Shown: positions 1 to 40,570, numbered from the stretch's first letter. The stretch is 43,110 nt of DNA from an uncultured Candidatus Saccharibacteria bacterium (GCA_964638985.1 CAZXCD010000002.1:379-43488), one strand, 5' to 3'. Made by a program: numbers and translations. Notes: generated by a model from the sequence alone, not told the origin.

Positions 1-234
1 CTGAAGGAGGAGAATCAGCGGGATCAGCTGGAGCTGGGTCTACGGGGGCCGGTTCAACAGGGGCAGGTTCACCACCTCCCCCCGCCTCGGCGGGCGAGCC
101 TTCGGGTACTCCTCCTTCTGAAGGAGGAGAATCAGCGGGATCAGCTGGAGCTGGGTCTACGGGGGCCGGTTCTACGGGTGCTGGATTTGAACCACCACCA
201 CCCCCGCTTCCTGCGGGTACTCCTCCTACACTAG
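1..234. repeat. 117-nt (39-codon) tandem duplication inside the 3' part of the surface-protein CDS
   Basis: Positions 1-55 and 118-172 are identical (ctgaaggaggagaatcagcgggatcagctggagctgggtctacgggggccggttc). The second halves have diverged. The array may continue past the window edge. Confidence 0.8.
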
Positions 235-2746
235 GAGGAGAGGCGAGCAATGCATCAAGTTGAGATTTTGTGATACAGGTCTTCGCTCCTGTGTCATCCG
301 AGACGCACAAGGACTTCGTTTCTATTTCTCCGACGAAAATTTTAGCGATACCGTTCGTGGCATCCGCGAGCCAGGTGGTGAGCTTGGAGAGAAGGCGGGA
401 GAAGAAAGAACCACCTCCCTCGCTTTCTGCGAGTACTCCTCCTTCCAAAGGAGGAGAGGAAACATCAAGCGATAATACATCTTCCAAGTTCAAATTCATT
501 TCCTTTATGGCATTGATGGTTGCGGCGAGGATGGTCGTGGTGTTGACCTGTCTGTATCCCGAAGGATTTATATTGACCGCCTCCGGGATGGCTGACTCAA
601 TATTCTGAGCGATGAAGCCGGAATAATTTATTCCTCCGTCATAAAGTCCGGAATTTTCTCTCCAAGAATATGTTTCTGGATTGATTTGCATAATGCTTGC
701 CAAGCCTGCGGTAAATTCTCCGTGGAGATCTTTTAATCTTTCATCAGAGGTACAGCTCATGGTACCGCTTCCGTTGGTCTGAATGCCTCCGCAAGAAACC
801 AAGCTCACAGCGCTGACCACTCCAGCATTGGTGACGTTGAATTGTGTCACCCCTCCCACCTGTGCGTCAATTAAGTACTGTGCTCCCGAACCCACAGATG
901 TTTCTGTCCTGTTTATTAGAAGGTCGGTATTGGCGGCAGTAGAAGCAACTTGGTTGTAAATTGGAGCGATTTTTAACGCGCCATTTGTTCCAGATACTTG
1001 AGAATGTGTACCACCTCCAAGAGTTACCGCAAACCTACTGGCTGTTGAATAACTGTAACTATTTAGAGTGAATGTGGTATTCGTGTTGTAAGGACCTATC
1101 GAGTCAGTGTTTATTAACCCTGTAGCCCATAAGTTTCCAGTATTTATTAATCCTGGTGTTGTTATATTTCCCGCCTTACTTACCTTAAACAAATTCGTCG
1201 TCCCAGCTGCTCCGCCTAAAATCTGCATAGCCAAAGAAGCAGAATTGGAAGCAGTATCAGTAATAACAAACTTCAATCCCGTAGGTGCTCCTGTCGTATT
1301 CCAAGTCTGAGCAAGATTAAGAAGAGAGCCAGCGAGAGAACCAGAACCTGCAAGGTAAGTATCATTCATCACGAGAGAACCCGTGGTAGTTTCTATCGCT
1401 CTATAATCTGCCGCAGCGGTAAGATTTGAGCTTATGTAAAGCCCACGAGTTATTCCATTAGCTCCACCAGTTTGATTAATTGTTCCACCTATATTCAAAT
1501 TTGTGTAAGTTCCCGTTCCACTTGTAGGAGCAAAGGTTCGTGCAAAAATAGTGTTGGTATAATTACCTGTAGTGTTAGTTAAATTATCTCCAGAGAATCC
1601 TACTCCTATATCTCCAGCTGTTATAGAATAGCTAAAAAATCCAAGCCCTTTACCTGTTGGGTCAGGACCAGTATATGCTGCAGCAAGAAATGGAAATATC
1701 ACTGGAGCTTGTGTAGTATTAGTTCCAAATCTCAAAGCATATTTTGTTCTGATTCCTCCATCTGTCCAACTCGTCCCAGTAACTACATCGAGAGGGTAGG
1801 AGGGTGCCGCCGTCCCTATCCCGACGAGACCTGTCCCTAAAATTGTCATCGCTTCGGTAGCTCCATTGTTGCCTACTAGGAAGTGCATATCAGCACCGGT
1901 TGCTCCGATACCTGTGGTTGTTTTGAAAGTTAAATCTTGGGTTGTTGAAGAGCCTCCGATTAATAGAGGGCTGGTTAAAGAGTGTGTGCCTAAGTCTAGG
2001 TCTGTGGTAGCTCCTGTGTATGGGATGTAACCCGAAGCAGAAGCGTAATAGCTTCCGTCTTGTCCGTCTAAAAGATCTGCATTTAAATTTGAAACGAGCC
2101 CAGTGTTTGAAGTGGTCAAAGTGTTTGCTCCGAGGACGAGATTTCCACCCATGGTGAATCCAGCAACTGTCCCAGTGAATGTCGGACTAGTGAACATTGT
2201 AGCCTTGCTTTCGTTTGTGACATTGCCTAGACTCACATCACTAGCAGTGACGGTAACATCGGAAGATAAAGCATGGCCGTTTACCATTCTGGTATCTGGA
2301 ACAGCAGTAAATCCTAAAGCATTTTGTTTATTATTAAAAATATCCCAATCCGTATCTGAAAGTGCACCTGTGGTGGAGGTGGAAGACAAATCCAAACTCA
2401 ATACTTGAGTCGCAAGAGAGAGGCCGTTGGCCGATACGCCCAAAGAGATGGGGTCGTGACTGCCTGCAACGAGCCCTTCTATTTTGTCATAGAGAGCATT
2501 TTTGGATGGAGCATGTGTGGTATCTGTATCCCAGCCTGCCCCATAAACTGTGTCACTTATATTTAAAGAGGTAAGGGGAGCGCGGACATCACAGTCCACG
2601 TCAGTCGGCAGACATTCTGGATTTAAGGTGTCTCCCGGCTCGTAAAAAGTGCCATTCCAGACGGCAAAAACAGTCGGAGCAAAGAAGGAAAGTACCACAA
2701 TGACCGCGAATATTATTATTGTTTTTTTATTTAATAAAAAAGGCAT
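1..2746 (-). CDS. Large secreted tail-fibre-like surface protein with a Peptidase_S74-type intramolecular chaperone domain; the 3' end runs off the window
   Basis: Absent from the ORF track because it has no stop codon inside the window. My reverse translation from the ATG at 2746-2744 stays open to position 1 (915 codons plus 1 nt). The N-terminus MPFLLNKKTIIIFAVIVVLSFFAPTVFA looks like a signal peptide. The body is G/T/N/S-rich and fibre-like. SDERLKDLHGEF...YSGFIAQNIESAIPEAV...IKEMNLNL (about 748-497) matches the S-D-x-R-x-K autoproteolytic chaperone motif of tail fibres and endosialidases. Confidence 0.75.
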   Translation of the reverse strand, partial: MPFLLNKKTIIIFAVIVVLSFFAPTVFAVWNGTFYEPGDTLNPECLPTDVDCDVRAPLTSLNISDTVYGAGWDTDTTHAPSKNALYDKIEGLVAGSHDPISLGVSANGLSLATQVLSLDLSSTSTTGALSDTDWDIFNNKQNALGFTAVPDTRMVNGHALSSDVTVTASDVSLGNVTNESKATMFTSPTFTGTVAGFTMGGNLVLGANTLTTSNTGLVSNLNADLLDGQDGSYYASASGYIPYTGATTDLDLGTHSLTSPLLIGGSSTTQDLTFKTTTGIGATGADMHFLVGNNGATEAMTILGTGLVGIGTAAPSYPLDVVTGTSWTDGGIRTKYALRFGTNTTQAPVIFPFLAAAYTGPDPTGKGLGFFSYSITAGDIGVGFSGDNLTNTTGNYTNTIFARTFAPTSGTGTYTNLNIGGTINQTGGANGITRGLYISSNLTAAADYRAIETTTGSLVMNDTYLAGSGSLAGSLLNLAQTWNTTGAPTGLKFVITDTASNSASLAMQILGGAAGTTNLFKVSKAGNITTPGLINTGNLWATGLINTDSIGPYNTNTTFTLNSYSYSTASRFAVTLGGGTHSQVSGTNGALKIAPIYNQVASTAANTDLLINRTETSVGSGAQYLIDAQVGGVTQFNVTNAGVVSAVSLVSCGGIQTNGSGTMSCTSDERLKDLHGEFTAGLASIMQINPETYSWRENSGLYDGGINYSGFIAQNIESAIPEAVNINPSGYRQVNTTTILAATINAIKEMNLNLEDVLSLDVSSPPLEGGVLAESEGGGSFFSRLLSKLTTWLADATNGIAKIFVGEIETKSLCVSDDTGAKTCITKSQLDALLASPPSVGGVPAGSGGGGGSNPAPVEPAPVDPAPADPADSPPSEGGVPEGSPAEAGGGGEPAPVEPAPVDPAPADPADSPPS
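71..129 (+). repeat. GC-rich composite palindromic element (CPE) copy, inside a CDS and antisense to it
   Basis: caccacctcccc, then mini-hairpin cccgcc-tc-ggcggg, then gtactcctcctt-ctg-aaggaggag. On the CDS strand it reads SPPSEGGVPEGSPAEAGGGGE. Confidence 0.7.
190..238 (+). repeat. CPE copy inside a CDS
   Basis: caccaccaccccc, then cccgc-ttcct-gcggg, then gtactcctcct-acact-aggaggag. It encodes SPPSVGGVPAGSGGGGGS. Confidence 0.7.
411..458 (+). repeat. CPE copy inside a CDS
   Basis: ccacctccc, then tcgc-tttc-tgcga, then gtactcctcctt-ccaa-aggaggag. It encodes SPPLEGGVLAESEGGG. Confidence 0.65.
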
Positions 2747-2816
2747 ATTCTCATAGAGATACCATATATATTATACAACAAAAGTATGAGCTAATGTATG
2801 CAAAATGGGGATAAGT

Positions 2817-2861
2817 CTACCCCCTCCGTCATTCTGACACCTCCCCCTACGTAGGGGGAGG
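2817..2861 (+). repeat. CPE copy, intergenic
   Basis: ctaccccctcc... followed by a perfect hairpin cctcccccta-cg-tagggggagg (2840-2861). Confidence 0.6.
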
Positions 2862-2877
2862 CTGGGAAGGGGTATTT

Positions 2878-3246
2878 CTATTTCTGAATCTTACTAATTA
2901 GAATCTCCAAGAGTTTTTTCACACTATTTTGGGCTTCTGCTTCCGTCGAGCTACCGGTAAAGTTTTGCCATTCTTCCATCACTTCTTTGTCTTTCAGGTC
3001 GCGTACGGCATTTTCCAAAGAAAGCCGTGTTTCAAAGTCCACTTCCTTGTCCGCTTGCAATACTTTCTTCACGAACATAGAAGCGAAATTGACTACTTTT
3101 GTATTTACCTCCGCTTTATCTCTTATGGAATAGGCTGAGTTTAATTCTCGGTTCAGGAGAAAATAATTAAGCGCGAAAAATACATTGCCGATGATAAGCG
3201 CCCCGATAACTATTATGAGAACAATGCGTTTTTTACTTTCCATCAT
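2878..3246 (-). CDS. Hypothetical small membrane-anchored protein
   Basis: 122-aa ORF with an N-terminal hydrophobic helix (IVLIIVIGALIIGNVFFAL). It overlaps the upstream gene's stop by 14 nt, which suggests an operon. I recognise no motif. Confidence 0.6.
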   Translation of the reverse strand: MMESKKRIVLIIVIGALIIGNVFFALNYFLLNRELNSAYSIRDKAEVNTKVVNFASMFVKKVLQADKEVDFETRLSLENAVRDLKDKEVMEEWQNFTGSSTEAEAQNSVKKLLEILISKIQK

Positions 3247-5275
3247 TTTTATTTAAAAACTTTGATAATTTCTCCCGTAAGGTATTACGATAGAAATTAT
3301 ACATTAATAATAATAAAACAACAATCAAAAGAACTGTTTGAAAATCAATTTTCTCCATCCACTTCGTGCTGGAACCGAGTTCTATGTTCTGGTGGATACC
3401 GCTTCCTTCCGCTACTACGAACACTTTCCCTCTGTAGGTGAGATAGCCCGGCGCCTCTACTTCAAAATAATAAGAACCTTCCGGCACCAGGAATGAATAA
3501 GTACCCCGGACATCCGTCACTTGAGGGTTTTCTTGTTGATAATCTTTCGCAGGCCAGAGTTCGTATTTCTTGGTAGTAGTATTTAAGTAATAAAGGGACA
3601 CGATGGCGGACGGAATGCGAGTTTCTTTGCCGCCATTTTTCTCAAAGACGTATCCCTCCGGGTCAATGACCGTGGTCATCCTCATCTGGCGAGTGCCCAA
3701 TACCGGATCTATGTAGTTGATGACGGTGATGATTTCGTATTCTCCCGGCACGATGGGGGAGACGACGTCCGCGGTGTATATGCCGTCATGGTCCGGGTCA
3801 ATGTATTCAAATGAGGAGAGAACTAATTTGTTTTCTACCTCACCCCCCGCCTTCCCCTGGAAAGGGGAAGGGGCTTGCTCAACAAAATTGTTCATAGAAA
3901 AAAGCGCGGAAGCGGTGAGAGAAGAACGAGGAATGCTGTTTTGAGAAATCTTCGGGGTGGGAGCTTTGAATACGAAATACCCCGTCACGCTACTAGCCTT
4001 GCTGATAGGCTTGACTACTAAGCGTAATGTCTGGCCGGGTAGAGTGGACATCTGCTGGGAGACTTCGCCCCTTTCTCCTACAGACAAAGCGACGTTTAGA
4101 TCAACGAGCTCTTGATTGGCGCGGGCGAAGACGAATTCCGCCGGAAGATTTTTCTTGGCGGAAGGGGAGAACTTCGCGATAGGCAAGCCTTTTATCAAAG
4201 CTATTTTACCCACACCCACGTTGTTCATCATTTGTCCGTCTAAATTGGAAAGCCCCGGAATGTTGATAGATACTCCATTCAACTTATCAATCTCGGACAA
4301 GTTTTCCAGTCCGACGGTGGTAATCGTTTTATCTAAAATGTTTGCCAATCCTGGAATATTCAAAGACACACCAGTCAACTTGCCCAAGTCGCTCAGCCTC
4401 TCTATTCCTACGCTTTTCAAAGTTTTATCCAATTCTGGAAATTTACTTGCGAGGATGCGGATATCATAAGGCAATGGAGCAAAGACGAAAGAACTGATGG
4501 CTTTTGCGGGTAAGATATTCCACAAAGCACTGAGGGCTTTCGGCGCGACTTTTGGAATTTCCGCTAAAGTTTCCGTGGAAGGCTTTTCTCCTCCAAATAA
4601 ATAAGAAAGAAAATCAGAGGCGTAATTGACTACGTTTGAAAGGTTGTCAAAGATGTCAAAGGGAGGAAGCGCAACAAAAGGAGGTGGCGTGAAAGGGGGA
4701 GGAGTAACGGGTGGAGGGTTGCGGGGAGCGGAGCCACTGGAACCGCCGGAACTTCGCATACTAGCCGGTCTCCAATCTGTTTTTATTTTGAAATCGGCCG
4801 AGGCGCAAGAATTTCCTGTCGCGCAATTGAAATTGATTTGACTGCTGTCGGATTTAAGAGTCGCATAACCTAGCAATTCTCCACTTGTGTTTATCGTCAC
4901 TCCTGTAAAATCAATCCAGCCCAGATTGGAACTCCAAGCGTAACCCGAGAGTACGCCCGCGCCGTCGTTTTTGACCCCTGAAGTCGTCGGGGCCAAATTT
5001 ATCCAGCCGAACTGACTACTCCAAGCGTTCCCGGTAATTTCGGTATCGGTAATTTGAACATTGCAATTATCACAGCCAAAATTTATCCAGCCGATGTTTT
5101 CTCCCCAAGCGTATTTGTATGCTCCATCAATGACCCCGTCGGTTTCGGAAGCAAGGGCGGAAGATGCCCTCGGTCGTAGCCCTACGGGTGAGACGAAAAA
5201 AACCAAAGAAAATAGAATTCCCAAAAAAAGCGCTTTTTTCCCTAAAAATGTATCTAACATAAAGATTTTAAGCAT
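3233..5275 (-). CDS. Large secreted repeat protein with a CarboxypepD_reg-like domain and a C-terminal TM anchor
   Basis: 680-aa ORF with a signal-like N-terminus. It has repeated W..N.GWI.F motifs (GWINFG, GWINLA, GWIDFTG) and a Pro-rich linker (PPVTPPPFTPPPF). RGTYSFLVPEGSYYFEVEAPGYLTY resembles a carboxypeptidase-regulatory fold. A hydrophobic helix lies at the C-terminus. Confidence 0.75.
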   Translation of the reverse strand: MLKIFMLDTFLGKKALFLGILFSLVFFVSPVGLRPRASSALASETDGVIDGAYKYAWGENIGWINFGCDNCNVQITDTEITGNAWSSQFGWINLAPTTSGVKNDGAGVLSGYAWSSNLGWIDFTGVTINTSGELLGYATLKSDSSQINFNCATGNSCASADFKIKTDWRPASMRSSGGSSGSAPRNPPPVTPPPFTPPPFVALPPFDIFDNLSNVVNYASDFLSYLFGGEKPSTETLAEIPKVAPKALSALWNILPAKAISSFVFAPLPYDIRILASKFPELDKTLKSVGIERLSDLGKLTGVSLNIPGLANILDKTITTVGLENLSEIDKLNGVSINIPGLSNLDGQMMNNVGVGKIALIKGLPIAKFSPSAKKNLPAEFVFARANQELVDLNVALSVGERGEVSQQMSTLPGQTLRLVVKPISKASSVTGYFVFKAPTPKISQNSIPRSSLTASALFSMNNFVEQAPSPFQGKAGGEVENKLVLSSFEYIDPDHDGIYTADVVSPIVPGEYEIITVINYIDPVLGTRQMRMTTVIDPEGYVFEKNGGKETRIPSAIVSLYYLNTTTKKYELWPAKDYQQENPQVTDVRGTYSFLVPEGSYYFEVEAPGYLTYRGKVFVVAEGSGIHQNIELGSSTKWMEKIDFQTVLLIVVLLLLMYNFYRNTLREKLSKFLNKNDGK
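3841..3871 (+). repeat. CPE copy, in frame inside the 680-aa CDS
   Basis: caccccccg followed by ccttcccct-ggaa-aggggaagg. It encodes ...APSPFQGKAGGEV... on the minus strand. Confidence 0.65.
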
Positions 5276-5411: not shown

Positions 5412-5418
5412 AGTATTT

Positions 5419-5470
5419 GCCGAAGTAGCTCAGCTTGCCCCGCCTGAGTTAGGCGGGGTGAAGTAGAGCA
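5419..5470 (+). pseudogene. tRNA 5'-fragment (acceptor plus D arm) with a GC hairpin inserted in the D loop
   Basis: gccgaag-ta-gctcagcttg[ccccgcctgagttaggcggggtgaa]gtagagc followed by an A-run. There is no anticodon arm, T arm or 3' acceptor. Confidence 0.3.
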
Positions 5471-5479
5471 AAAAAATAA

Positions 5480-5561: not shown

Positions 5562-6497
5562 ATGGAAAAAGATACGAACGAAATAGAAAATGAAATAGAA
5601 AAGCTTGAAGAGGAGATGCAGGCCCCTAACTTTTGGAACGATAAAAATAAAGCGCAGAATGTTTTAAAAGAACTAGCAGATTTAAAAAATAAAAAAGAAG
5701 GAACGAATAAATACGACAGGGGTAATGCTATTGTGACAATCATTTCCGGCGCTGGCGGGGAAGATGCGGAAGACTTCGGCGCGATGCTCTTCTCTATGTA
5801 TGTGAAATATGCGGACAAAATGGGCTTCAACGTTTTTTTAATTCACGAAAACAAAAATAACAGCGGGGGATACAGAAATGTTTCTTTTGAGATAACAGAC
5901 CCCACCCTACACCCTCCCCTTCGCAGGGGAGGGCACGGGGAGAGGTTAGGCCCGTATGGCATGCTCAAAAAAGAATCCGGGGTGCACAGGCTCGTGCGCA
6001 TTTCTCCATTTGATGCGAAAAAACTGCGTCACACGTCCTTCGCGCTCGTGGAAGTTTTGCCTAAATTTTCAAAACTAGAAGAAAAAGATTTTGTAATTCC
6101 ACCAGCAGATTTGAAGATAGAATTTTCCCGTTCGGGCGGTCCCGGAGGGCAGAATGTGAATAAAAGAGAAACGGCAGTAAGGATAGTCCACATACCCTCG
6201 GGCATAGCGGTGCATTCTTCCGAAGAACGGTCGCAAGAGAATAATCGCGAACGGGCGATGGCTATTTTGCGAGCAAAAATTTTCAAAAAAGCGGAAGAAG
6301 AGAAGAAAAGTGTGGAAGAAATATTCAAACAAAAGTCTACGGAGATAGAATGGGGAAATCAAATTCGTTCGTACGTGCTCCATCCGTACAAAATGGTAAA
6401 AGATCATAGGACTGATGCCGAGACATCGGATGTGGATGGAGTGCTGGATGGGAATCTAGACTTGTTCATAGAGGCGGAGAAAGATTTATTTACCTAG
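5562..6497 (+). CDS. prfB: Peptide chain release factor 2 (compact form, no programmed frameshift)
   Basis: SPF tripeptide (RISPFD), GGQ motif (SGGPGGQNVNK), GVHRLVR and WGNQIRSYV. I moved the start to ATG 5562, because the track start at 5526 lies inside the tRNA. The ORF is continuous, so no +1 frameshift site is needed. Confidence 0.9.
   Translation: MEKDTNEIENEIEKLEEEMQAPNFWNDKNKAQNVLKELADLKNKKEGTNKYDRGNAIVTIISGAGGEDAEDFGAMLFSMYVKYADKMGFNVFLIHENKNNSGGYRNVSFEITDPTLHPPLRRGGHGERLGPYGMLKKESGVHRLVRISPFDAKKLRHTSFALVEVLPKFSKLEEKDFVIPPADLKIEFSRSGGPGGQNVNKRETAVRIVHIPSGIAVHSSEERSQENNRERAMAILRAKIFKKAEEEKKSVEEIFKQKSTEIEWGNQIRSYVLHPYKMVKDHRTDAETSDVDGVLDGNLDLFIEAEKDLFT
5900..5933 (+). repeat. CPE copy, in frame inside prfB
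   Basis: ccccaccctaca followed by ccctcccct-tcgc-aggggaggg. It encodes DPTLHPPLRRGGHGERL, which has no counterpart in canonical RF2 between the ..EI and GxYGxLK..GVHRLVR segments. Confidence 0.7.
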
Positions 6498-7181
6498 GGT
6501 TCCCCTCGGGGATGGGGGTTCGAGAAATTCGGGAAGTTCTGCGCTAAAATCATCCACAATATTATTATAATTACAGATATTTTTTTCTCTGATAGGGAAT
6601 GGTTTTGCGTTTATTATTTTATAATTTTTAGATAAATATTCTTGCAGGCTGGAGTATGGATATTCAGCAATAAATTTTTTAAGTTGAGTCAAAAAGCTTT
6701 TTGGCTGTGTTTTCCACTTAGATTTTTTTAATTTTGCAGGGTTTAGGTGTATGTATGCGTAAATATATTTAAGGTATACATCTTCATCTATATGTTGCGA
6801 TTTAAAAACCCCTTGAAAAAGAGTTCCAACTCGATCAGTTTTTTTATTAAAGTACATTGAATACCCAGTCTGAAGCTTAAGCATAAATTTTGAAATACCT
6901 CCGTTCACAAGGGGAGTCAGTAGTAGATGAAAATGATTTGGCATTAAGCAATATGCACCAATTGCGACCAATGGTTCACCCCGATCTTTTTGGAATATTT
7001 CTTCTATTGAGTTAATTACTCCATAGTCTCTGAAGTGCAGTGGTTGATTGCTATTTGCGATATAAAGCAACATCAAGAATCTCTTGTAATCGGTAGAGTT
7101 CTGAAAAATAATCCTTTTTTCAACTCCTCGATTATATGCATGATAGAATTCTCCAATTTCAAATTTTATTTTTCTTTCCAT
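6486..7181 (-). CDS. IS200/IS605-like Y1 (HUH) transposase, REP-associated (RayT-type), copy 1
   Basis: HUH motif LMPNHFHLLL and catalytic Tyr motif YAYIHLNPAK. It is flanked by REP1 hairpins on both sides. Confidence 0.85.
   Translation of the reverse strand: MERKIKFEIGEFYHAYNRGVEKRIIFQNSTDYKRFLMLLYIANSNQPLHFRDYGVINSIEEIFQKDRGEPLVAIGAYCLMPNHFHLLLTPLVNGGISKFMLKLQTGYSMYFNKKTDRVGTLFQGVFKSQHIDEDVYLKYIYAYIHLNPAKLKKSKWKTQPKSFLTQLKKFIAEYPYSSLQEYLSKNYKIINAKPFPIREKNICNYNNIVDDFSAELPEFLEPPSPRGTLGK
6494..6511. repeat. REP1 hairpin (ctaggg/ccctag type) at the 3' end of RayT-1
   Basis: ctagggttcccctcgggg. It encodes the C-terminal ...PSPRGTLGK. Confidence 0.7.
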
Positions 7182-7209
7182 ATATTTTAGTAGTATAGCA
7201 CATTCTCTG

Positions 7210-7230
7210 CCTAGGGGAACCCTAGGGGAG
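7210..7230. repeat. REP1 hairpin upstream of RayT-1
   Basis: cctaggggaaccctaggggag, with stem ctaggg / ccctag. Confidence 0.7.
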
Positions 7231-7282
7231 TTGTGTCTTGAAGTTTTTTTTGTGAAGTTATATAATTATTGAGATTAAACCT

Positions 7283-11525: not shown

Positions 11526-11548
11526 TGAGCGAGGGTAGTCCTCGCTCA
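11526..11548 (+). repeat. REP2 hairpin
   Basis: tgagcgagg-gtagt-cctcgctca, a 9-bp stem. It lies between the convergent pyrG and membrane-protein genes. Confidence 0.8.
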
Positions 11549-12479: not shown

Positions 12480-13190
12480 TTAATACCTGAGCGAGGGTAG
12501 TCCTCGCTCAATTTCAATCAATGGTTTATTTAGCTGAAAGACTTTTTCTTGTGTTTTAAAATCTAATTTCATATCTTTTATATATTCTGGGATTTTAGAA
12601 AAATCTAGAATTACTGATTCTGGTCTATTTATAGATAAAAAATCTTGATAACTAGAGAATTGATATTTTTTTAGGAATTCTTCTGTTTCTTTTCTGTTTT
12701 TTATCCCATTTTCTTTCCATTTTTTATCAATAATTGAAATTGGATTGAGGTGTACATAAGAAAAGATATACACGTACTGCGACTCGTTGCTTATGTGCTC
12801 AGATTTAAAGGGGTGTGTGAATAGCGGACCGCTTCGCTCGTATTTTGTGTTGAAATACATTGAATATGCAGTCAAAAGTTTGCCCATAAATTTGCTTATT
12901 CCACCTTCACTGCCTTCATATAAAATTAAATGAAAATGATTTGGCATGAGGCAATATCCTAAAATAGAGACAAGAGTTCCTTCTCTTTTTTCCATGAATA
13001 TGTCTTCTAAACTTTTATTTTTATCGCGGAGAAAGTTTCCCATTGTAAATGGTGCGTCTTGGTTCATAATATACAAAAGAGCCACAAAGCGATTGTAGTC
13101 TTTTGTGTTCATGAATATTTTGCGTTTTTCTACTCCACGAGAGTAAACATGATAATGTTCACCAACGGCAAGGGATGTTTTTCTATACAT
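12480..13190 (-). CDS. IS200/IS605-like Y1 (HUH) transposase, REP-associated (RayT-type), copy 2
   Basis: LMPNHFHLIL and YVHLNPIS motifs. It is flanked by REP2 copies. Confidence 0.85.
   Translation of the reverse strand: MYRKTSLAVGEHYHVYSRGVEKRKIFMNTKDYNRFVALLYIMNQDAPFTMGNFLRDKNKSLEDIFMEKREGTLVSILGYCLMPNHFHLILYEGSEGGISKFMGKLLTAYSMYFNTKYERSGPLFTHPFKSEHISNESQYVYIFSYVHLNPISIIDKKWKENGIKNRKETEEFLKKYQFSSYQDFLSINRPESVILDFSKIPEYIKDMKLDFKTQEKVFQLNKPLIEIERGLPSLRY
12488..12510 (+). repeat. REP2 hairpin at the 3' end of RayT-2
   Basis: Identical tgagcgagggtagtcctcgctca. It encodes the C-terminal ..IERGLPSLRY. Confidence 0.8.
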
Positions 13191-13203: not shown

Positions 13204-13226
13204 TGAGCGAGGGTAGTCCTCGCTCA
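13204..13226 (+). repeat. REP2 hairpin 13 nt upstream of the RayT-2 start
   Basis: Identical tgagcgagggtagtcctcgctca. Confidence 0.8.
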
Positions 13227-16061: not shown

Positions 16062-16149
16062 TCATTTAGTATAACATATTTTCCTACCATTAGACGATTA
16101 ATTTAAACAATAGTACAAAATCGCGTTTTTATCAAATTATTAATTAGTT

Positions 16150-16158
16150 TGGTATAAT
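16150..16158 (+). promoter_or_regulatory. Extended -10 promoter, leaderless geometry
   Basis: TGgTATAAT, then 6 nt, then ATG 16165. Confidence 0.6.
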
Positions 16159-16164
16159 AAAAAT

Positions 16165-16797: not shown

Positions 16798-16801
16798 TGC
16801 G

Positions 16802-16830
16802 GTTCTAACTTCACACCAAACTCCAACCAA
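16802..16830 (+). repeat. Intergenic repeat copy
   Basis: gttctaacttcacaccaaactccaaccaa. Confidence 0.6.
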
Positions 16831-16834
16831 TATT

Positions 16835-17281: not shown

Positions 17282-17313
17282 GTTCCAACTTCGCGCCAAA
17301 CTTCAAGCTAGTA
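17282..17313 (+). repeat. Intergenic repeat copy
   Basis: gttccaacttcgcgccaaacttcaagctagta. Confidence 0.65.
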
Positions 17314-17327
17314 TATAATGTATTCAT

Positions 17328-21824: not shown

Positions 21825-21826
21825 TT

Positions 21827-23093: not shown

Positions 23094-23135
23094 ATTTAGT
23101 TGTATTTTGCAGTAGAATGAAAATTAGTTTAAATT

Positions 23136-23144
23136 TGGTATAAT
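23136..23144 (+). promoter_or_regulatory. Extended -10 promoter, leaderless geometry
   Basis: TGgTATAAT, then 6 nt, then ATG 23151. Confidence 0.6.
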
Positions 23145-23150
23145 TAACAT

Positions 23151-23693: not shown

Positions 23694-23696
23694 ATT

Positions 23697-23705
23697 TGGT
23701 ATACT
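23697..23705 (+). promoter_or_regulatory. Extended -10 promoter, leaderless geometry
   Basis: TGgTATACT, then 6 nt, then ATG 23712. Confidence 0.55.
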
Positions 23706-23711
23706 CAATTT

Positions 23712-33686: not shown

Positions 33687-33692
33687 GATTTT

Positions 33693-33711
33693 CCAAAAGA
33701 CGGTCTTTTGG
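33693..33711. repeat. REP3 hairpin upstream of RayT-3
   Basis: ccaaaagac-g-gtcttttgg. Confidence 0.8.
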
Positions 33712-33712
33712 G

Positions 33713-33718
33713 TATAAT
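33713..33718 (+). promoter_or_regulatory. -10 box abutting REP3, leaderless geometry
   Basis: TATAAT, then 6 nt, then ATG 33725. Confidence 0.5.
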
Positions 33719-33724
33719 AGTTTT

Positions 33725-34432
33725 ATGGGATACAGAAAGGCACCGCTTGTGCGGGGTGAGTTTTATCATATCTATAATCGTGGTAATAGCCGACAGCAGA
33801 TATTTTTCAATGACGACGATTATCGTCATTTTGTTAAACTGCTCTATCTTTGCAATTCAGTTAAAAAAATTAATTTTCGTGAAGACATAGTTGAGAAAAA
33901 AATTGATGCTTGGGATTTTGATAGAGAAGAAACGATAGTTTCAATTGGGGCTTGGGTTTTGATGCCGAACCATTTTCATATTTATATTACTTTCCCAAAA
34001 GACGGTCTTTTGGGTGAAAATAATATCTCTGTTTTTATGCGTAAACTTTGTACCGCCTATTCAAAATATATTAATGCAAAATATAAACGCACTGGTTCAC
34101 TTTTTGAGGGCAGATTTAGGTCTGTTCGCGTGTCTAATGAAGTACAAGCAAAATATCTTTTTTCATATATTCACTTGAATCCGGTAAAATTATTTCAAAA
34201 AAGTTGGAAAGAAGAGGGAATACATGATAAAAATAAAGCGATTTCGTTTCTTGATAAATATAGATGGAGTAGTTATCAAGATCATATGCTAGTAAATAGA
34301 CTAGAAAATAAGATATTAGACAGAGACAATTTTCTTGATTATTTTTCCGATAGAAAAGATTTTCAAAAAGAAATTTTTGAGTGGTTTGAAGGATCTGATG
34401 AAGTTTCCCAAAAGACGGTCTTTTGGGAATAA
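33725..34432 (+). CDS. IS200/IS605-like Y1 (HUH) transposase, REP-associated (RayT-type), copy 3
   Basis: LMPNHFHIYI and YIHLNPVK motifs. It is flanked by REP3 and also contains a REP3 copy. Confidence 0.85.
   Translation: MGYRKAPLVRGEFYHIYNRGNSRQQIFFNDDDYRHFVKLLYLCNSVKKINFREDIVEKKIDAWDFDREETIVSIGAWVLMPNHFHIYITFPKDGLLGENNISVFMRKLCTAYSKYINAKYKRTGSLFEGRFRSVRVSNEVQAKYLFSYIHLNPVKLFQKSWKEEGIHDKNKAISFLDKYRWSSYQDHMLVNRLENKILDRDNFLDYFSDRKDFQKEIFEWFEGSDEVSQKTVFWE
33994..34014. repeat. REP3 hairpin inside the RayT-3 CDS (in frame)
   Basis: cccaaaagacggtcttttggg encodes FPKDGLLG immediately after the HUH motif. The two paralogs are about 5 aa shorter at this point. Confidence 0.75.
34407..34427. repeat. 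REP3 hairpin at the 3' end of RayT-3
   Basis: cccaaaagacggtcttttggg encodes the C-terminal SQKTVFWE. Confidence 0.8.
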
Positions 34433-34447
34433 TATACAGTATCAGTA
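34432..34447 (+). repeat. 16-bp direct repeat, right copy
   Basis: atatacagtatcagta, identical to 33670-33685. Confidence 0.8.
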
Positions 34448-36283: not shown

Positions 36284-36895
36284 ATGTTTCGGTTTACAAA
36301 AAAAGAAGAATCACTGCTGAAAAAATTAAACACTCCGGCCAAGGCGCAGGATTTTTTGAATGCTCTTCGGTTTAATTTTGAAGAGAAGGGAGAGACCTTG
36401 AAGTCTCCGCTTTTCACTCTCAGGGCAAAGAATGCACATTGTCTGGAAGGGGCTCTGCTCGGGGCTTATATCTTGTCTCTGCACGGCTTTACCCCGTATG
36501 TGATGCACCTGAAGGCTATTAGAGAAGACTATGACCATGTGATCGCCCCATTTAAGGTTGGGGGGCTCTGGGGCGCGCTTTCTAAGACTAACCACGCAGT
36601 TCTGCGTTATCGTGAGCCTGTTTATAAGAATATCCACGAGCTCGTGATGTCATACTTTCACGAATATTTTTTAGACAACGGAGTAAAGACTCTCCGGAAA
36701 TATTCTGGACTCCTTAATTTAAATACTTTTGAACAAGGTTGGGAAAGGGAAGACGGCAACCTGTGGGGGATAGATGAAGAACTGGACAAGATAAAGCACT
36801 ACGATATCCTACCTAGGGGAACCCTAGGGAAACTTCGCAAAGCGGACAAGGTTGAAATTCGGGCGGGAAAAATCGTGGAATTTAAAAGACGTTGA
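36284..36895 (+). CDS. Hypothetical protein, possibly transglutaminase/cysteine-peptidase-like
   Basis: 203-aa ORF. NAHCLEGALLGAYIL...DYDHVIAPF suggests a Cys-His dyad. This is weak. Confidence 0.35.
   Translation: MFRFTKKEESLLKKLNTPAKAQDFLNALRFNFEEKGETLKSPLFTLRAKNAHCLEGALLGAYILSLHGFTPYVMHLKAIREDYDHVIAPFKVGGLWGALSKTNHAVLRYREPVYKNIHELVMSYFHEYFLDNGVKTLRKYSGLLNLNTFEQGWEREDGNLWGIDEELDKIKHYDILPRGTLGKLRKADKVEIRAGKIVEFKRR
36812..36830. repeat. REP1 hairpin, in frame inside the CDS
   Basis: cctaggggaaccctaggga encodes LPRGTLGK, the same peptide as the RayT-1 C-terminus. Confidence 0.7.
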
Positions 36896-38838: not shown

Positions 38839-39333
38839 TTATTCCAATTTCCACTCAAGAATGTCCCCATCCTTAAGCACGTAAGAAGAAACGCCGACAG
38901 TCGCTTCTTTACCGTTAATATAATAAAGCAAGTCTTTCCCATCCCCAGAATGAAGCGCGCCGATATCGGTTAGAAAGAATCCCAAACCGGGATATTTTTT
39001 CCCAGAAAAAGTAATGCCGCCGGAATTTTTCGCTTTCATTAACGCGTCATAAAAGGTGGTACTTGCGGGGACGGATAGAGTTATTTTTTCTTCTCCGAAC
39101 ATGACAGTCACATTTTCTGTATTTTGGGCAAGAAGAGGTTTTAGGGTCGGTTTCGTTTCTTTTATTACCCTCTCTGCCTCCGGCACCTCCCCTTTAACAA
39201 GGGGGAGGTTGGGTGGGGGTGCTATAATGGTAATTTTTTGGGGGGATAAAAATATAAATATAAAAAAAGCTATAAAAGCAAGAATTAATCCAATTGTTAA
39301 AATTATTTTTTTGTTTTTCATAAATTTTGACAT
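38839..39333 (-). CDS. Membrane-anchored DUF4430-like protein
   Basis: TM helix, then TTFYDALMKAKNSGGITFSGKKYPGLGFFLTDIG...LLYYINGKEATVGVSSYVLKDGDILEW (DUF4430 pattern). It ends 4 nt upstream of the next gene. The start is ambiguous (39333 or 39321). Confidence 0.7.
   Translation of the reverse strand: MSKFMKNKKIILTIGLILAFIAFFIFIFLSPQKITIIAPPPNLPLVKGEVPEAERVIKETKPTLKPLLAQNTENVTVMFGEEKITLSVPASTTFYDALMKAKNSGGITFSGKKYPGLGFFLTDIGALHSGDGKDLLYYINGKEATVGVSSYVLKDGDILEWKLE
39186..39221 (-). repeat. CPE copy, in frame inside the DUF4430 CDS
   Basis: The reverse complement reads cacccccacccaa followed by cctccccctt-gtta-aaggggagg. It encodes APPPNLPLVKGEVPE. Confidence 0.65.
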
Positions 39334-39410: not shown

Positions 39411-39504
39411 AAAATGATTGGTAGTCGGGCTTGTCTCCGAACTTTCGTCGGAGCTTACCGTAGCGGCACTGCACTGGAATCTAACCAGTTTCCCCAAATC
39501 ATTT
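39411..39504 (-). promoter_or_regulatory. Cobalamin riboswitch-like aptamer (compact)
   Basis: The minus strand reads aaaugauuugGGGGAAacUGGuuagauuCCAgUGCAGugCCGCUACGGUAAGCuccgacGAAAguucGGAGACAAGCCCgacuaCCAAUCAUUUu. A P1 helix closes the element. The core and a B12-box-like segment match the consensus as I recall it. Confidence 0.6.
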
Positions 39505-39531
39505 CTTATATTTTTAAAAAGGAACTCACTT

Positions 39532-39559
39532 AGTATATACTTACCTTATACGATGTCAA
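39532..39559 (-). promoter_or_regulatory. Sigma70-type promoter for the riboswitch/DUF4430 operon
   Basis: Minus strand: TTGACA (39559-39554), then N16, then TATACT (39537-39532). Confidence 0.6.
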
Positions 39560-39582
39560 AAAGAACTGTGGAAAACAGAAAA

Positions 39583-39617
39583 CCACCCCTAACCCCTCCT
39601 TTATTAAGGAGGGGAGG
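39583..39617 (+). repeat. CPE copy, intergenic
   Basis: ccacccctaa followed by cccctcct-ttatta-aggagggg-agg. Confidence 0.65.
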
Positions 39618-39630
39618 AAAAACGCGAATC

Positions 39631-40038: not shown

Positions 40039-40047
40039 AATCTCAAT

Positions 40048-40100
40048 CACCACCCCTTTCGACTAAAGTCGAAATGCCCCTCCTCCACAAGGAGGGGAGG
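40048..40100 (+). repeat. CPE copy (full composite form) upstream of the DUF559 gene
   Basis: caccacccc, then tttcgac-taaa-gtcgaaa, then cccctcct-ccaca-aggagggg-agg. Confidence 0.75.
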
Positions 40101-40113
40101 ATAAAAAATTCGC

Positions 40114-40479
40114 ATGAAAATTATTCATAATGTAACTAAATTATTAGAAAGGAGAAAAGAACTCAGAAATGAGAGTACGCCGGAAGAAATTCTGCTGTGG
40201 CTACAACTTAAGAATTCAAAAATTGGCTTCAAGTTCAGGAGACAACATAGTATCGGAGGATATATTGTAGATTTCTACTGTCCAACCAACAGAGTGGTGA
40301 TTGAAATTGATGGTTTGCAACATTCTAAAAAAGAAAACAAAGAATACGACAAAATCAGAAGCAAGTATTTGGAAAGTTTGAATATAAAAGTTTTACGTTT
40401 TACAAATTTGGAAATAAGCACAGAAACACAGAAGGTTGTGGATAAAATAAAAGAGGAACTTACCACCACCCCTGACTAA
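40114..40479 (+). CDS. DUF559 (Vsr-like endonuclease fold) protein
   Basis: FRRQHSIGGYIVDFYCPTNRVVIEIDGLQH...KVLRFTN is the DUF559 signature. Confidence 0.8.
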   Translation: MKIIHNVTKLLERRKELRNESTPEEILLWLQLKNSKIGFKFRRQHSIGGYIVDFYCPTNRVVIEIDGLQHSKKENKEYDKIRSKYLESLNIKVLRFTNLEISTETQKVVDKIKEELTTTPD

Positions 40480-40513
40480 AAGTCAGGTACTCCTCCTCAT
40501 TAAGGAGGAGAGG
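40464..40513 (+). repeat. CPE copy overlapping the DUF559 stop
   Basis: caccacccc, then ctgact-aaaa-agtcag, then gtactcctcct-catta-aggaggag. It encodes the C-terminal TTTPD*. Confidence 0.75.
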
Positions 40514-40524
40514 GTGCTTGAATT

Positions 40525-40570
40525 CCTCCCCTCCTTGTGGAGGAGGGGTGCCATTTATGGCGGGGTGGTG
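40525..40570 (-). repeat. CPE copy, inverted orientation
   Basis: The reverse complement reads caccaccccgccataaatggcacccctcctccacaaggaggggagg. The large hairpin is identical to that of copy 40048-40100. Confidence 0.75.

What the first reader, a model, noticed from the sequence alone, without database searches (positions are those of the whole stretch)
1..40570. RPE-like family of GC-rich composite palindromic elements, at least 11 copies in 43 kb, many in frame inside genes
A modular element recurs at 71-129, 190-238, 411-458, 2817-2861, 3841-3871, 5900-5933, 39186-39221, 39583-39617, 40048-40100, 40464-40513 and 40525-40570. A cut copy also lies at the left window edge.

Its modules are:
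- a CACCACCCC-type head;
- a short variable mini-hairpin;
- a pyrimidine-run/purine-run hairpin such as CCCCTCCT-loop-AGGAGGGG or GTACTCCTCCT-loop-AGGAGGAG.

The elements are about 60-70% GC in a roughly 38% GC genome. At least five different CDSs carry copies without losing their reading frame: the tail-fibre-like protein (3 or more copies), the 680-aa surface protein, prfB, the small DUF4430 protein and the DUF559 C-terminus. The copies add PP(L/S)xxGG-type peptides.

In-frame colonisation of genes by a palindromic repeat is the hallmark of Rickettsia palindromic elements. I am not aware of it being described for this kind of genome.
Basis: seen in the sequence. Interest (0 to 1): 0.75.

Follow-up and report, generated by a model that had tools for sequence, protein, structure and literature searches.

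The report
BoxC-like triplex repeats inside genes
This small groundwater bacterium carries short GC-rich hairpin repeats of the BoxC / "intrastrand triplex" kind, known but unexplained in E. coli for 30 years; many sit in frame inside genes (even release factor 2), and across bacteria they bracket a small nuclease gene (DUF559) that may be what spreads them.

Summary
The window has 11 perfect pyrimidine/purine hairpins against 0.04 in shuffles. Seven copies lie wholly inside CDSs, in frame, and an eighth overlaps the end of the DUF559 gene. Orthologues lacking the segment show these are gains or losses of DNA, not ancestral peptides.

The elements are not a private, RPE-like invention of this lineage. 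The same module occurs with near-identical sequence in many phyla and in viral contigs. The "head" is a mirror copy of the pyrimidine arm. This is the architecture of E. coli BoxC/PIT/TMECO "intrastrand triplex motifs" (Holder 2015), which were reported as always intergenic and without any mobility gene.

Two points seem new:
- In this CPR lineage the motifs sit in frame in proteins, and one RF2 loop is a hot spot holding different subfamilies in close relatives.
- DUF559 (Vsr-like nuclease) genes are bracketed by these elements. In a protein-first sample, 91% had a hairpin within 200 nt, an 18-fold enrichment. This includes E. coli ycjD. Sometimes the whole unit lies in frame inside restriction-modification enzymes.

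Nuclease-driven copying is my preferred mechanism, but it is inferred, not shown.

The parts
1..13 (+). Cut copy: 3' purine arm (CTGAAGGAGGAGA) of an element truncated by the window edge. It is part of the 117-nt tandem repeat of the tail-fibre-like gene.
71..131 (+). Long-form copy: head ACCACCTCCCC, two small hairpins, then hairpin TACTCCTCCT/AGGAGGAGAA. It is in frame (antisense orientation) in the tail-fibre-like CDS, which runs on the - strand and off the left edge.
190..241 (+). Long-form copy: head CCACCACCCCC, mini-hairpin CGCttcctGCG, then CTCCTCCTA/TAGGAGGAG. It is in frame in the tail-fibre-like CDS.
410..459 (+). Long-form copy: head ACCACCTCCC, mini-hairpin CTCGCtttctGCGAG, then CTCCTCCTT/AAGGAGGAG. 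It is in frame in the tail-fibre-like CDS (SPPLEGGVLAESEGGG). An identical copy lies in the orthologue in L211.
2817..2874 (+). Intergenic copy with both a head (TACCCCCTCC) and a complementary tail (GGGAAGGGGTA), a mini-hairpin, and CCTCCCCCT/AGGGGGAGG. It folds as a three-way junction. It is absent from the orthologous spacer of L008. The same subfamily occupies the RF2 site in L209.
3839..3874 (+). Short-form copy (CACCCCCC + CGCCTTCCCCT/AGGGGAAGGGG), in frame in the 680-aa surface protein (APSPFQGKAGG). It is present in L211 and absent in L008, where there is an 8-aa gap.
5900..5945 (+). Short-form copy (CCCCACCC-TACA-CCCTCCCCT/AGGGGAGGG-CAC-GGGGAGAGG), in frame in prfB (DPTLHPPLRRGGHGER). 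It sits in a loop that AlphaFold2 predicts with low confidence.
39185..39222 (-). Short-form copy (CACCCCCACCCA + ACCTCCCC/GGGGAGGT), in frame in the linker after the membrane helix of the small DUF4430 protein (APPPNLPLVKGEV).
39581..39619 (+). Short-form copy (AACCACCCC-TAA-CCCCTCCTT/AAGGAGGGG-AGG). It is an in-frame insertion of about 11 aa in the conserved N-terminal extension of the cytidylyltransferase (MSKRTVEN-RKPPLTPPLLRRGG-KTRIMTF).
40048..40102 (+). Long-form copy upstream of DUF559. Its hairpin CCCCTCCTccacaAGGAGGGG is the exact inverted repeat of the hairpin at 40528-40548.
40114..40479 (+). DUF559 gene (121 aa, Vsr-like PD-(D/E)XK nuclease, PF04480). The positions conserved in all seven aligned homologues (D53, E64, D66, H70) are present.
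40461..40519 (+). Long-form solo copy of 59 nt. It is a clean insertion relative to L213/L214. Its head supplies the last codons (TTTPD*) of DUF559.
40525..40572 (-). Long-form copy in reverse orientation, closing the DUF559 unit. The outer end of its head (GGGGTGGTGATT|) is the junction of a further 765-nt insertion/deletion difference.
5438..5458 (.). Possible relative: hairpin CCCCGCCT/AGGCGGGG without a head, between two tRNA-Thr genes. L008 and L211 carry a canonical copy in the same spacer. The CCCCGCCT arm type also flanks DUF559 genes elsewhere.

Best explanation
The copies are members of a pan-bacterial superfamily of short (35-60 bp) selfish DNA modules of the BoxC / PIT / 'intrastrand triplex motif' type.

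Anatomy. Each module is Y1 (the 'head') - linker - Y2 - loop - R2, sometimes followed by a tail R1.
- Y2 and R2 form the pyrimidine/purine hairpin.
- Y1 is a mirror copy of Y2.
- The linker is either about 3 nt or a variable mini-hairpin.
- On the complementary strand the module reads hairpin - linker - G/T-rich third strand. This is the geometry shown by CD and NMR to fold into a purine-motif triplex for the E. coli family.

The larger unit. It is about 0.45-0.5 kb: a DUF559 (Vsr-like nuclease) gene bracketed by two modules, usually with the heads facing the gene. Solo modules and doublets far outnumber it.

Inferred mechanism. The nuclease nicks or cuts at or next to a module. The break is repaired by copying from another copy. 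This would (a) move the nuclease gene between modules, (b) overwrite one subfamily by another at an occupied site, and (c) now and then seed a module at a sequence that resembles the G/T-rich tail.

Why copies survive in genes. Modules are open in about 4 of 6 frames and encode Pro/Gly-rich flexible peptides. Copies whose length is a multiple of three therefore survive in loops and linkers of proteins. This shows up strongly in a gene-dense CPR genome.

Shown: the anatomy, the distribution, the DUF559 association, the presence/absence differences, one inversion, and the in-frame status.
Inferred: triplex folding of these particular copies, and the role of the nuclease in spreading them.
For: Family and anatomy:
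Hits came from Acidobacteriota, Bacteroidota, Proteobacteria, Chlamydiota, Chloroflexota, Nitrospinota, several CPR groups and others.
- Heads mirror their own arm in at least 10 arm subfamilies. Own heads score 9-10.5; heads swapped between subfamilies score 4-7; the direct-repeat register scores 5.7.
- The commonest linker is 3 nt; otherwise it is a mini-hairpin of 12-22 nt. The head base opposite an arm T is A in 77% of cases, which is T on the G-rich strand.
- Among 69 long-form copies there are 56 distinct mini-hairpin sequences. 54 have a perfect stem of 4 or more, against about 11 expected from shuffles.
- TMECO/BoxC = CCCTCNCCC-N3-6-GGGNGAGGG-N3-GGGNGAGGG. Its triplex was verified in vitro, and its TTA/CCG linkers equal the TAA/CGG linkers seen here (PMC4666352).

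DUF559 link:
- 7 of 120 pattern-selected loci carry DUF559, each within about 120 nt of a copy, most directly abutting or bracketed.
- In 66 DUF559 loci picked by protein similarity alone, 60 have a pyrimidine/purine hairpin within 200 nt and 44 have one on both sides. Density is 4.9 per kb near the gene against 0.28 per kb further than 500 nt away.
- The heads-facing-gene arrangement occurs 17 times against 3 for the opposite arrangement.
- E. coli K-12 ycjD (DUF559) has a TMECO copy about 180 nt downstream and a degenerate hairpin at its stop codon.
- No other gene family recurs near the elements.
- DUF559 belongs to the Vsr clade, which includes the homing endonuclease I-Bth0305I.

Dynamics:
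- L215 lacks the whole unit between the same two genes.
- L213/L214 have the DUF559 segment inverted between the same two hairpins and lack the 59-nt solo copy.
- The RF2 loop is empty in some close relatives and filled with different subfamilies in others.
- The empty RF2 site GGTAGGGGTGTT resembles the tail.

In-frame tolerance:
- On average 4.3 of 6 frames are open across an element.
- The RF2 insert lies in a loop with pLDDT below 50.
- DUF559 plus its flanking modules lies in frame inside MmeI-family and Type ISP enzymes.
Against: - No cleavage or copying by DUF559 has been shown. A 120-aa nuclease has no strand-transfer activity of its own.
- The window holds six arm subfamilies but only one DUF559 gene, whose own flanks are of two types. 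One nuclease with one specificity does not obviously serve them all.
- Only about 1-6% of sampled elements lie next to DUF559.
- About 1,770 E. coli genomes matched only the 30-50-nt element part of the 691-nt query and not most of the ycjD stretch. Elements may therefore persist without that gene. I did not check these genomes for a diverged or partly deleted ycjD, or for other DUF559 copies.
- The 59-nt insertion has no clear target-site duplication.
- Filled RF2 alleles nearly all share GPYG, which points to shared ancestry plus turnover rather than repeated fresh insertion.
- The identical DUF559 protein was found at only one locus.
- Co-variation of DUF559 sequence with arm type is small (52.4% against 49.2% identity) and may only reflect relatedness.
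- Holder et al. saw no triplex-specific protection in their in vivo DMS footprint.
Confidence: 0.55

Rival explanations
1. The modules are orphan non-B-DNA repeats that spread and turn over through host replication and recombination errors at hairpin or triplex structures. DUF559 is only a passenger: a free-standing homing-type nuclease gene that uses the repeats as landing sites and plays no part in multiplying them.
For: - Solo copies vastly outnumber DUF559 units.
- Many E. coli genomes matched the element part of the query without most of the ycjD stretch.
- Holder et al. link TMECO to local instability and found no mobility gene.
- Further insertion/deletion differences lie exactly at the end of an element.
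- Several subfamilies coexist with a single DUF559 gene in the window.
Against: - Near-identical sequence across distant phyla, together with subfamily-specific co-variation of head and arm, is hard to obtain without a sequence- or structure-specific agent that moves horizontally.
- This rival still needs some way to create new copies at new sites, such as the clean 59-nt insertion.
- The preferred orientation around DUF559 suggests a defined unit rather than random landing.
Confidence: 0.27
2. They are REP elements mobilised by the IS200-like Y1 transposase (RAYT-like) encoded at 6486-7181.
For: A Y1_Tnp gene lies next to prfB and is itself flanked by inverted hairpins.
Against: - Its flanks are a different palindrome (CCTAGGGTTCCCCTAGG, with a further copy at 36812) that has no head and no pyrimidine/purine arms.
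- tblastn with this Y1 protein found nothing in the 120 element-bearing loci.
- There is no GTAG/CGTC tag.
Confidence: 0.03
3. They are genes or cis-elements for a structured RNA (Whalefall-1-like non-coding RNA, terminator, or ribosome-binding-site-sequestering hairpin), and it is the RNA that is under selection.
For: - The Rfam Whalefall-1 consensus has the same layout: pyrimidine/purine hairpin, variable hairpin, GGGUGAGG tail. It aligns end to end with 40046-40100.
- The 3' arm AGGAGG looks like a Shine-Dalgarno sequence.
Against: - The score is 17.1 bits against a gathering score of 37. No Rfam family reaches its threshold on the window or on 33 other loci.
- Copies lie in both orientations relative to the host gene's transcription.
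- Copies occur in Bacteroidota, which in my understanding largely do not use Shine-Dalgarno sequences (from memory, not tested here).
- According to Holder et al., purine-motif triplexes do not form in RNA, and PIT elements showed no promoter or terminator activity.
Confidence: 0.05
4. There is no DNA element: the segments are ordinary Pro/Gly-rich protein linkers, whose CCN and GGN codons happen to be complementary.
For: A PPP...GGG linker in the 686-aa protein and its orthologue does form a weak pyrimidine/purine hairpin (L215 2519-2541; window around 38064, covariance-model E = 3.6).
Against: - Some copies are intergenic.
- Copies are translated in different frames and orientations.
- The non-coding head and mini-hairpin are conserved.
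- Orthologues lack the segments.
- Identical DNA occurs in unrelated proteins and phyla.
Confidence: 0.02

Closest known systems
BoxC / PIT elements / TMECO 'intrastrand triplex motifs' of E. coli, other Enterobacteria and Cyanobacteria (Bachellier 1990s; Hoyne 2000; Holder et al. 2015, PMC4666352)
   Same: - Same three-block architecture: pyrimidine arm - loop - purine arm - 3-nt linker - G/T-rich mirror block.
- Same linkers (TTA and CCG are TAA and CGG on the other strand).
- Occurrence as solo copies and as inverted doublets.
- High copy number in some strains and few in close relatives.
- Association with local rearrangement.
- The CCCTCTCC/GGGTGAGGG subfamily seen in my loci is TMECO itself.
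   Different: - TMECO was reported as always intergenic and never next to mobility functions.
- Here 7 of 11 copies lie wholly inside CDSs, and the family brackets DUF559 genes, including E. coli ycjD.
- The long form, with a mini-hairpin as linker, lies outside the 1-6-nt loop limit of the ITxF search.
- The window's arm sequences differ (CCCCTCCT, CTCCTCCT, CCCTCCCCT, CCTCCCCCT).
REP / REPIN elements with their RAYT (Y1) transposase
   Same: - Short palindromic repeats, many solo or doublet copies per genome.
- One small enzyme gene flanked by two copies in inverted orientation.
- Subfamily-specific sequences.
   Different: - The associated enzyme is a PD-(D/E)XK Vsr-like nuclease, not a Y1 transposase.
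- There is no GTAG/CGTC tag.
- A mirror-repeat third block is present.
- Copies are not confined to extragenic DNA.
Rickettsia palindromic elements (RPE)
   Same: Palindromic repeats inserted in frame in protein-coding genes, adding peptide segments in tolerated places. No transposase is known.
   Different: From memory, RPEs are about 100-150 bp, restricted to Rickettsia and relatives, and unrelated in sequence. They have no mirror-repeat block and no associated nuclease gene.
Free-standing Vsr-like (EDxHD) homing endonucleases: I-Bth0305I and the 'fractured gene' endonucleases (PMC3239194, PMC2677866)
   Same: - Same nuclease clade as DUF559.
- A small selfish gene with presence/absence differences at a fixed site.
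- It can sit inside host genes.
   Different: - Those reside in introns or between split-intein halves and target unique conserved genes.
- Here the gene sits between repeated modules. When it is inside an ORF, it is simply translated through as an extra domain.
Rfam RF01762 Whalefall-1 motif (Weinberg 2010, PMC2864571)
   Same: The layout is a pyrimidine/purine hairpin, a variable second hairpin and a GGGUGAGG tail. It is known only from metagenomes and has no known function.
   Different: The match is below threshold (17.1 against 37 bits). The motif was described as a non-coding RNA.

Membership tests
BoxC / PIT / intrastrand triplex motif (TM) | Three consecutive blocks: pyrimidine stem, complementary purine stem, and a second G-rich block that mirrors the purine stem, with short loops | tested here: met
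   A mirror relation between head and arm holds in at least 10 subfamilies and beats both swapped heads and the direct-repeat register. It can be read directly in most of the window's copies; copy 3839-3874 does not fit. For example: ACCACCCC|TAA|CCCCTCCT; CCCCACCC|TACA|CCCTCCCCT; TACCCCCTCC|..|CCTCCCCCT.
BoxC / PIT / intrastrand triplex motif (TM) | Match to the published TMECO pattern CCCTCNCCC-N3-6-GGGNGAGGG-N3-GGGNGAGGG | tested here: not met
   The window's copies use other arm sequences. Only related loci (for example L226, L162) and the E. coli ycjD flank carry the TMECO type. The window therefore belongs to the class but not to the TMECO subfamily.
BoxC / PIT / intrastrand triplex motif (TM) | Formation of an intrastrand triplex by the isolated strand | not testable with these tools
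   Shown by CD and NMR for TMECO only (PMC4666352). ViennaRNA does not model triplexes.
BoxC / PIT / intrastrand triplex motif (TM) | Intergenic location (as reported for E. coli) | tested here: not met
   7 of 11 window copies lie wholly within CDSs. About 12% of 160 copies in other genomes are spanned by long open frames.
Rickettsia palindromic elements | In-frame insertion of a palindromic repeat in CDSs | tested here: met
   RF2, the 680-aa protein and the cytidylyltransferase, each compared with orthologues lacking the insert.
Rickettsia palindromic elements | Length of about 100-150 bp and membership of the RPE sequence families of Rickettsiales | tested here: not met
   The copies are 35-61 bp. 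The host is a Nomurabacteria/Paceibacteria-type CPR bacterium. Sequence similarity to RPE consensus sequences was not tested, as none was at hand.
REP / RAYT | Imperfect palindrome of 20-40 bp with a conserved GTAG or CGTC tetranucleotide at one end | tested here: not met
   The conserved flanks are AACCACCCC and AGTT.
REP / RAYT | A Y1 transposase gene flanked by inverted copies of the same repeat | tested here: not met
   The window's Y1_Tnp gene is flanked by a different palindrome. No Y1 homologue was found in 120 element loci. DUF559 takes that position instead.
MITE | Terminal inverted repeats, a target-site duplication, and derivation from an IS that encodes a transposase | tested here: inconclusive
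   Some copies have head/tail inverted ends (2817-2874; L209). The 59-nt insertion has no clear duplication, at most CT. The associated gene is a nuclease, not a known transposase.
Free-standing homing endonuclease gene (Vsr-like) | Nuclease of the Vsr/EDxHD clade with its conserved acidic and His positions intact | tested here: met
   PF04480, E = 2.4e-32. PDB 3HRL, E = 2.6e-18. D53, E64, D66 and H70 are invariant in 7 of 7 sequences. Clade assignment from PMC3424549.
Free-standing homing endonuclease gene (Vsr-like) | Presence/absence difference at an orthologous site | tested here: met
   L215 lacks the unit between the cytidylyltransferase and MFS genes. The window, L213 and L342 have it.
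Free-standing homing endonuclease gene (Vsr-like) | Cleavage of the empty target site followed by copying of the gene | not testable with these tools
   Needs biochemistry or genetics.
Rfam RF01762 Whalefall-1 | Covariance-model score at or above the gathering score (37 bits) | tested here: not met
   17.1 bits on 40046-40100. No hit in 15 further loci.

The most novel reading that the evidence does not exclude
BoxC/PIT/triplex motifs, orphan repeats since the 1990s, are the non-autonomous copies of a pan-bacterial selfish system. Its autonomous form is a DUF559 (Vsr-like) nuclease gene bracketed by two such modules. The nuclease recognises the folded (triplex or hairpin) module and drives copying and conversion between modules. 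The modules have evolved to be readable in most frames as Pro/Gly linkers. Both the solo modules and the nuclease gene itself can therefore live inside host ORFs (RF2, surface proteins, MmeI and Type ISP enzymes) without needing an intron or an intein.
Probability: 0.35. Interest if true: 0.9.

Novelty: new variant of a known kind. Interest (0 to 1): 0.7.

Why it matters
If true, four things follow.

1. A candidate enzyme for an old orphan. BoxC/PIT/TMECO repeats have been catalogued for 30 years and are linked to genome instability, with no known way of spreading. The 2015 study states that no mobility function was ever found nearby. A consistent association with DUF559 nuclease genes, E. coli ycjD included, supplies a candidate. 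It makes the question testable in E. coli with standard genetics and biochemistry.

2. A proposed biological role for DUF559, a very widespread domain of unknown function.

3. A correction to the "always intergenic" picture. In gene-dense CPR genomes these motifs are tolerated in frame in essential proteins, and a single RF2 loop is a recurrent site. This adds a source of protein-length variation and of annotation artefacts (PPLxxGG peptides) in metagenomic proteins.

4. An unusual way for a selfish gene to live. A nuclease gene with translatable linker-coding ends, sitting in frame inside restriction-modification enzymes, needs neither an intron nor an intein.

Tried and rejected
- Rfam. No family reaches its gathering score on the window or on 33 related loci. 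The only near match is the sub-threshold Whalefall-1 hit.
- Y1 transposase as the mobiliser. Rejected: it has a different flanking palindrome, and no Y1 homologue lies near elements elsewhere.
- Shine-Dalgarno-sequestering hairpin upstream of the cytidylyltransferase and DUF559 genes. Dropped: the spacing to the ATG is 13 nt, and copy 39581-39619 turned out to lie inside a conserved N-terminal extension.
- Looking for the identical DUF559 protein at a second locus, as direct proof of recent movement. All 15 contigs are the same locus.
- Target-site duplication at the one clean insertion. Ambiguous, at most CT.
- Clean insertion in the DUF4430 protein. Cannot be shown, because the linker is unalignable and the total length is unchanged.
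- Co-variation of DUF559 sequence with arm subfamily. Statistically detectable but small, and confounded by relatedness.
- E. coli comparison of genomes with and without ycjD. In a spread sample of 30 rows there are about 3.0 against 1.7 extra element matches. This is suggestive only, since megablast sees only near-identical copies and phylogeny is not controlled.
- Literature. Searches for DUF559 or PF04480 together with repeats, for RAYT with Parcubacteria, and for RPE with CPR found no description of the association. One paper lists DUF559 among genes enriched between inverted repeats (PMC9881135).
- A covariance model for the long form was not built. The short-form model recovers only the hairpin part of long-form copies.

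Full report
WHAT IS IN THE WINDOW

The window is about 40% GC and comes from a Nomurabacteria/Paceibacteria-type CPR bacterium. Its prfB product is identical to one in GCA_001786735.1, a Rifle groundwater genome.

Each copy has three parts:
- a C-rich head, such as (A)ACCACCCC;
- either a linker of 2-5 nt or a small hairpin of variable sequence;
- a hairpin whose 5' arm is all pyrimidine and whose 3' arm is all purine.

This is far beyond chance:
- The strict pattern gives 5 exact matches against 0 in shuffles.
- There are 11 perfect pyrimidine/purine hairpins against 0.04 in shuffles.
- Single-stranded DNA folds have z-scores from -2.2 to -6.8.
- The copies are 61% GC against 39.7% for the window.
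- A covariance model trained only on copies from other phyla recovers the short-form copies at E = 1e-4 to 1e-6. It finds no further copy between 6.2 and 38.8 kb.

CODING STATUS

Seven copies lie wholly inside CDSs, in frame:
- three in the C-terminus of the Peptidase_S74 tail-fibre-like protein, two of them within a 117-nt tandem repeat;
- one in the 680-aa protein;
- one in prfB;
- one in the linker of the small DUF4430 protein;
- one in the conserved MSKRTVE... N-terminal extension of the cytidylyltransferase.

Both orientations are translated.

Comparison with close relatives shows that these are DNA gains and losses:
- L008 lacks the copy in the 680-aa orthologue, leaving an 8-aa gap. It also lacks the intergenic copy at 2817-2874.
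- L211 keeps the copy in the 680-aa orthologue but has an empty RF2 site.
- L006 and L215, from one genome of similar GC content, have no copy in 29 kb.

THE RF2 HOT SPOT

In 120 RF2 orthologues the base form is 294 aa, with "FEIxGKxxYG". Many others carry inserts of 5-27 aa at exactly this loop, of many different types. In a neighbour-joining ordering, empty and filled alleles are interspersed.

At the DNA level:
- The window and L008 hold a CCCTCCCCT-type copy.
- L209 (88% identical RF2) holds a CCTCCCCCT-type copy with a mini-hairpin. This is the same subfamily as the window's intergenic copy at 2817-2874.
- L210 and L212 hold yet other variants.
- The empty site reads GGTAGGGGTGTT, which resembles the G/T-rich tail of the elements.

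AlphaFold2 places the insert in a loop between a strand and a helix, with pLDDT below 50.

Almost all filled alleles share GPYG. I therefore cannot separate repeated insertion from one old insertion followed by replacement.

THE FAMILY IS NOT PRIVATE TO THIS LINEAGE

Near-identical copies occur in Acidobacteriota, Bacteroidota, Beta- and Gammaproteobacteria, Chlamydiota, Chloroflexota, Nitrospinota, Marinimicrobia and several CPR groups.

Features of these copies:
- The linker is bimodal: about 3 nt, or a hairpin of 12-22 nt.
- There are 56 distinct hairpin sequences among 69 long forms. 54 have perfect stems of 4 or more, against about 11 expected.
- About 12% of copies are spanned by long open frames, and on average 4.3 of 6 frames are open.

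THE HEAD IS A MIRROR OF THE ARM

Across at least 10 arm subfamilies, the head repeats the arm's pattern of C and non-C positions in reverse order.
- Own heads score 9-10.5 out of about 11.
- Heads swapped between subfamilies score 4-7.
- The direct-repeat register scores 5.7.
- The head base opposite an arm T is A in 77% of cases, which is T on the G-rich strand.

On that strand the element reads pyrimidine arm - loop - purine arm - linker - G/T block. This is the layout of a purine-motif intrastrand triplex.

This turned out to be published. E. coli BoxC repeats were re-described as PIT elements and then as TMECO (CCCTCNCCC-N3-6-GGGNGAGGG-N3-GGGNGAGGG). They fold into a triplex in vitro, occur thousands of times in Proteobacteria and abundantly in Cyanobacteria, and mark unstable loci. 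They were reported as always intergenic and never next to transposases or integrases (PMC4666352).

The window's copies belong to this class with other arm sequences. The Rfam Whalefall-1 motif has the same layout but matches below threshold.

THE DUF559 LINK

In the window, the DUF559 gene (40114-40479) lies between two copies whose hairpins are exact inverted repeats. A third copy is inserted at its 3' end.

Elsewhere:
- 7 of 120 pattern-selected loci hold DUF559, each within about 120 nt of a copy and most directly abutting or bracketed.
- No other gene family recurs near the elements.
- In the reverse test I used 80 DUF559 loci chosen by protein similarity alone. Of the 66 with enough flank, 60 have a pyrimidine/purine hairpin within 200 nt and 44 have one on both sides. 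Density is 4.9 per kb near the gene against 0.28 per kb further away.
- The arrangement with heads facing the gene dominates, 17 against 3.
- Arm variants match on the two sides of a gene.
- E. coli K-12 ycjD, which is annotated as a DUF559 protein, has a TMECO copy about 180 nt downstream and a degenerate hairpin at its stop codon.

DUF559 is a Vsr-like PD-(D/E)XK nuclease. Its closest solved structure is 3HRL. It shares a clade with the homing endonuclease I-Bth0305I. One survey lists DUF559 among genes enriched between inverted repeats. I found no paper that describes the association.

DYNAMICS AT THE DUF559 LOCUS

- L215 has the two neighbouring genes abutting, with no unit between them.
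- L213 and L214 have the DUF559 segment inverted between the same two hairpins and lack the 59-nt solo copy.
- L342 lacks a further 765 nt, whose junction is exactly the outer end of a head.

In L109, L082 and L159, the DUF559 gene together with its flanking modules lies in frame inside MmeI-family and Type ISP enzymes.

MECHANISM

My preferred reading is nuclease-initiated copying between modules, which resembles homing or gene conversion. In-frame survival follows because the modules lack stop codons and encode flexible peptides.

This reading is inferred. Its weak points are:
- no biochemistry;
- six subfamilies but one nuclease gene in the window;
- few DUF559 genes per element;
- no clear target-site duplication;
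- E. coli genomes that matched only the element part of the ycjD-region query.

The main rival is that the repeats spread by host processes and DUF559 merely lands in them.

VERDICT

The RPE analogy holds for behaviour but not for membership. The element class is already known (BoxC / PIT / triplex motifs). The in-frame colonisation in a CPR genome and the DUF559 association appear to be new.

Noticed in passing
window 6486-7181 (-), with 6484-6505, 7208-7232 and 36812-36828: An IS200-like Y1 transposase gene is flanked by inverted copies of a different palindrome (CCTAGGGTTCCCCT(A/C)GG). A further solo copy lies 30 kb away. This looks like a separate REP/RAYT-type system in the same genome. 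L211 also has a Y1_Tnp gene.
   Followed up: partly
window 5412-5479: Between the two tRNA-Thr genes lies GCCGAAGTAGCTCAGCTTG + hairpin CCCCGCCTgagttAGGCGGGG + TGAAGTAGAGC. In L211, a canonical element in the same spacer is followed by sequence starting GCCGAAGTAGCTCAGTTGGTAGA, which reads like the 5' end of a tRNA (not checked with a tRNA finder). The window sequence may therefore be a tRNA remnant interrupted by a hairpin, with a GAAGTAG(C/A)(T/G)C direct repeat on both sides.
   Followed up: partly
window 40573-41335: A 765-nt segment is absent from the otherwise identical locus L342 and from L213. It is inserted exactly at the outer end of the element head (GGGGTGGTGATT|). It contains several GC-rich hairpins (GGAACCttcgGGTTCC, TCTCGCctcgGCGAGA) and small ORFs. 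Its identity is unknown.
   Followed up: partly
window 39411-39543 (-): A cobalamin riboswitch (38.3 bits) lies upstream of the small DUF4430 gene and the 686-aa SQHop_cyclase_C/DUF4430 protein. This suggests a B12-binding or uptake operon.
   Followed up: no
window 16140-23720: A repeated motif TTTG(A/G)TATAAT-N6-8-ATG occurs directly at gene starts (five or more genes). This suggests leaderless mRNAs in a lower-GC (29-36%) block.
   Followed up: no
window 11526-11548, 12488-12510, 13204-13226, 41153-41175; 33689-34434; 22892, 26437, 40593: Three other small hairpin families recur, probably as terminators: TGAGCGAGGgtagtCCTCGCTCA (four copies), CCCAAAAGACGGTCTTTTGGG (three copies within 750 nt) and AAGGAAGCnnGCTTCCTT (three copies).
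   Followed up: no
window 5562-6497: RF2 is short (311 aa, with a truncated N-terminal domain). It is read from a single open frame with no programmed frameshift site, as in its CPR orthologues.
   Followed up: no
L109 278-3700, L082 976-2076, L159 12-1919: DUF559 together with its flanking modules is translated through as an internal domain of MmeI-family and Type ISP restriction-modification enzymes.
   Followed up: partly
L297 6070-6143, L267 6589-6655, L020 19-64: Type II hammerhead ribozymes occur in two viral contigs, and an Acido-Lenti-1 RNA occurs in a Terriglobia contig. All three contigs also carry the elements. The co-occurrence is probably coincidental.
   Followed up: no
L346 (E. 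coli K-12 NC_000913.3 1351040-1351830): Downstream of ycjD there is a partial duplicate of the ycjD 3' end (GAGACGGTGCTGGAGAATATTC...), lying between a degenerate hairpin and a TMECO copy. A 16-bp perfect palindrome overlaps the ycjD start.
   Followed up: no
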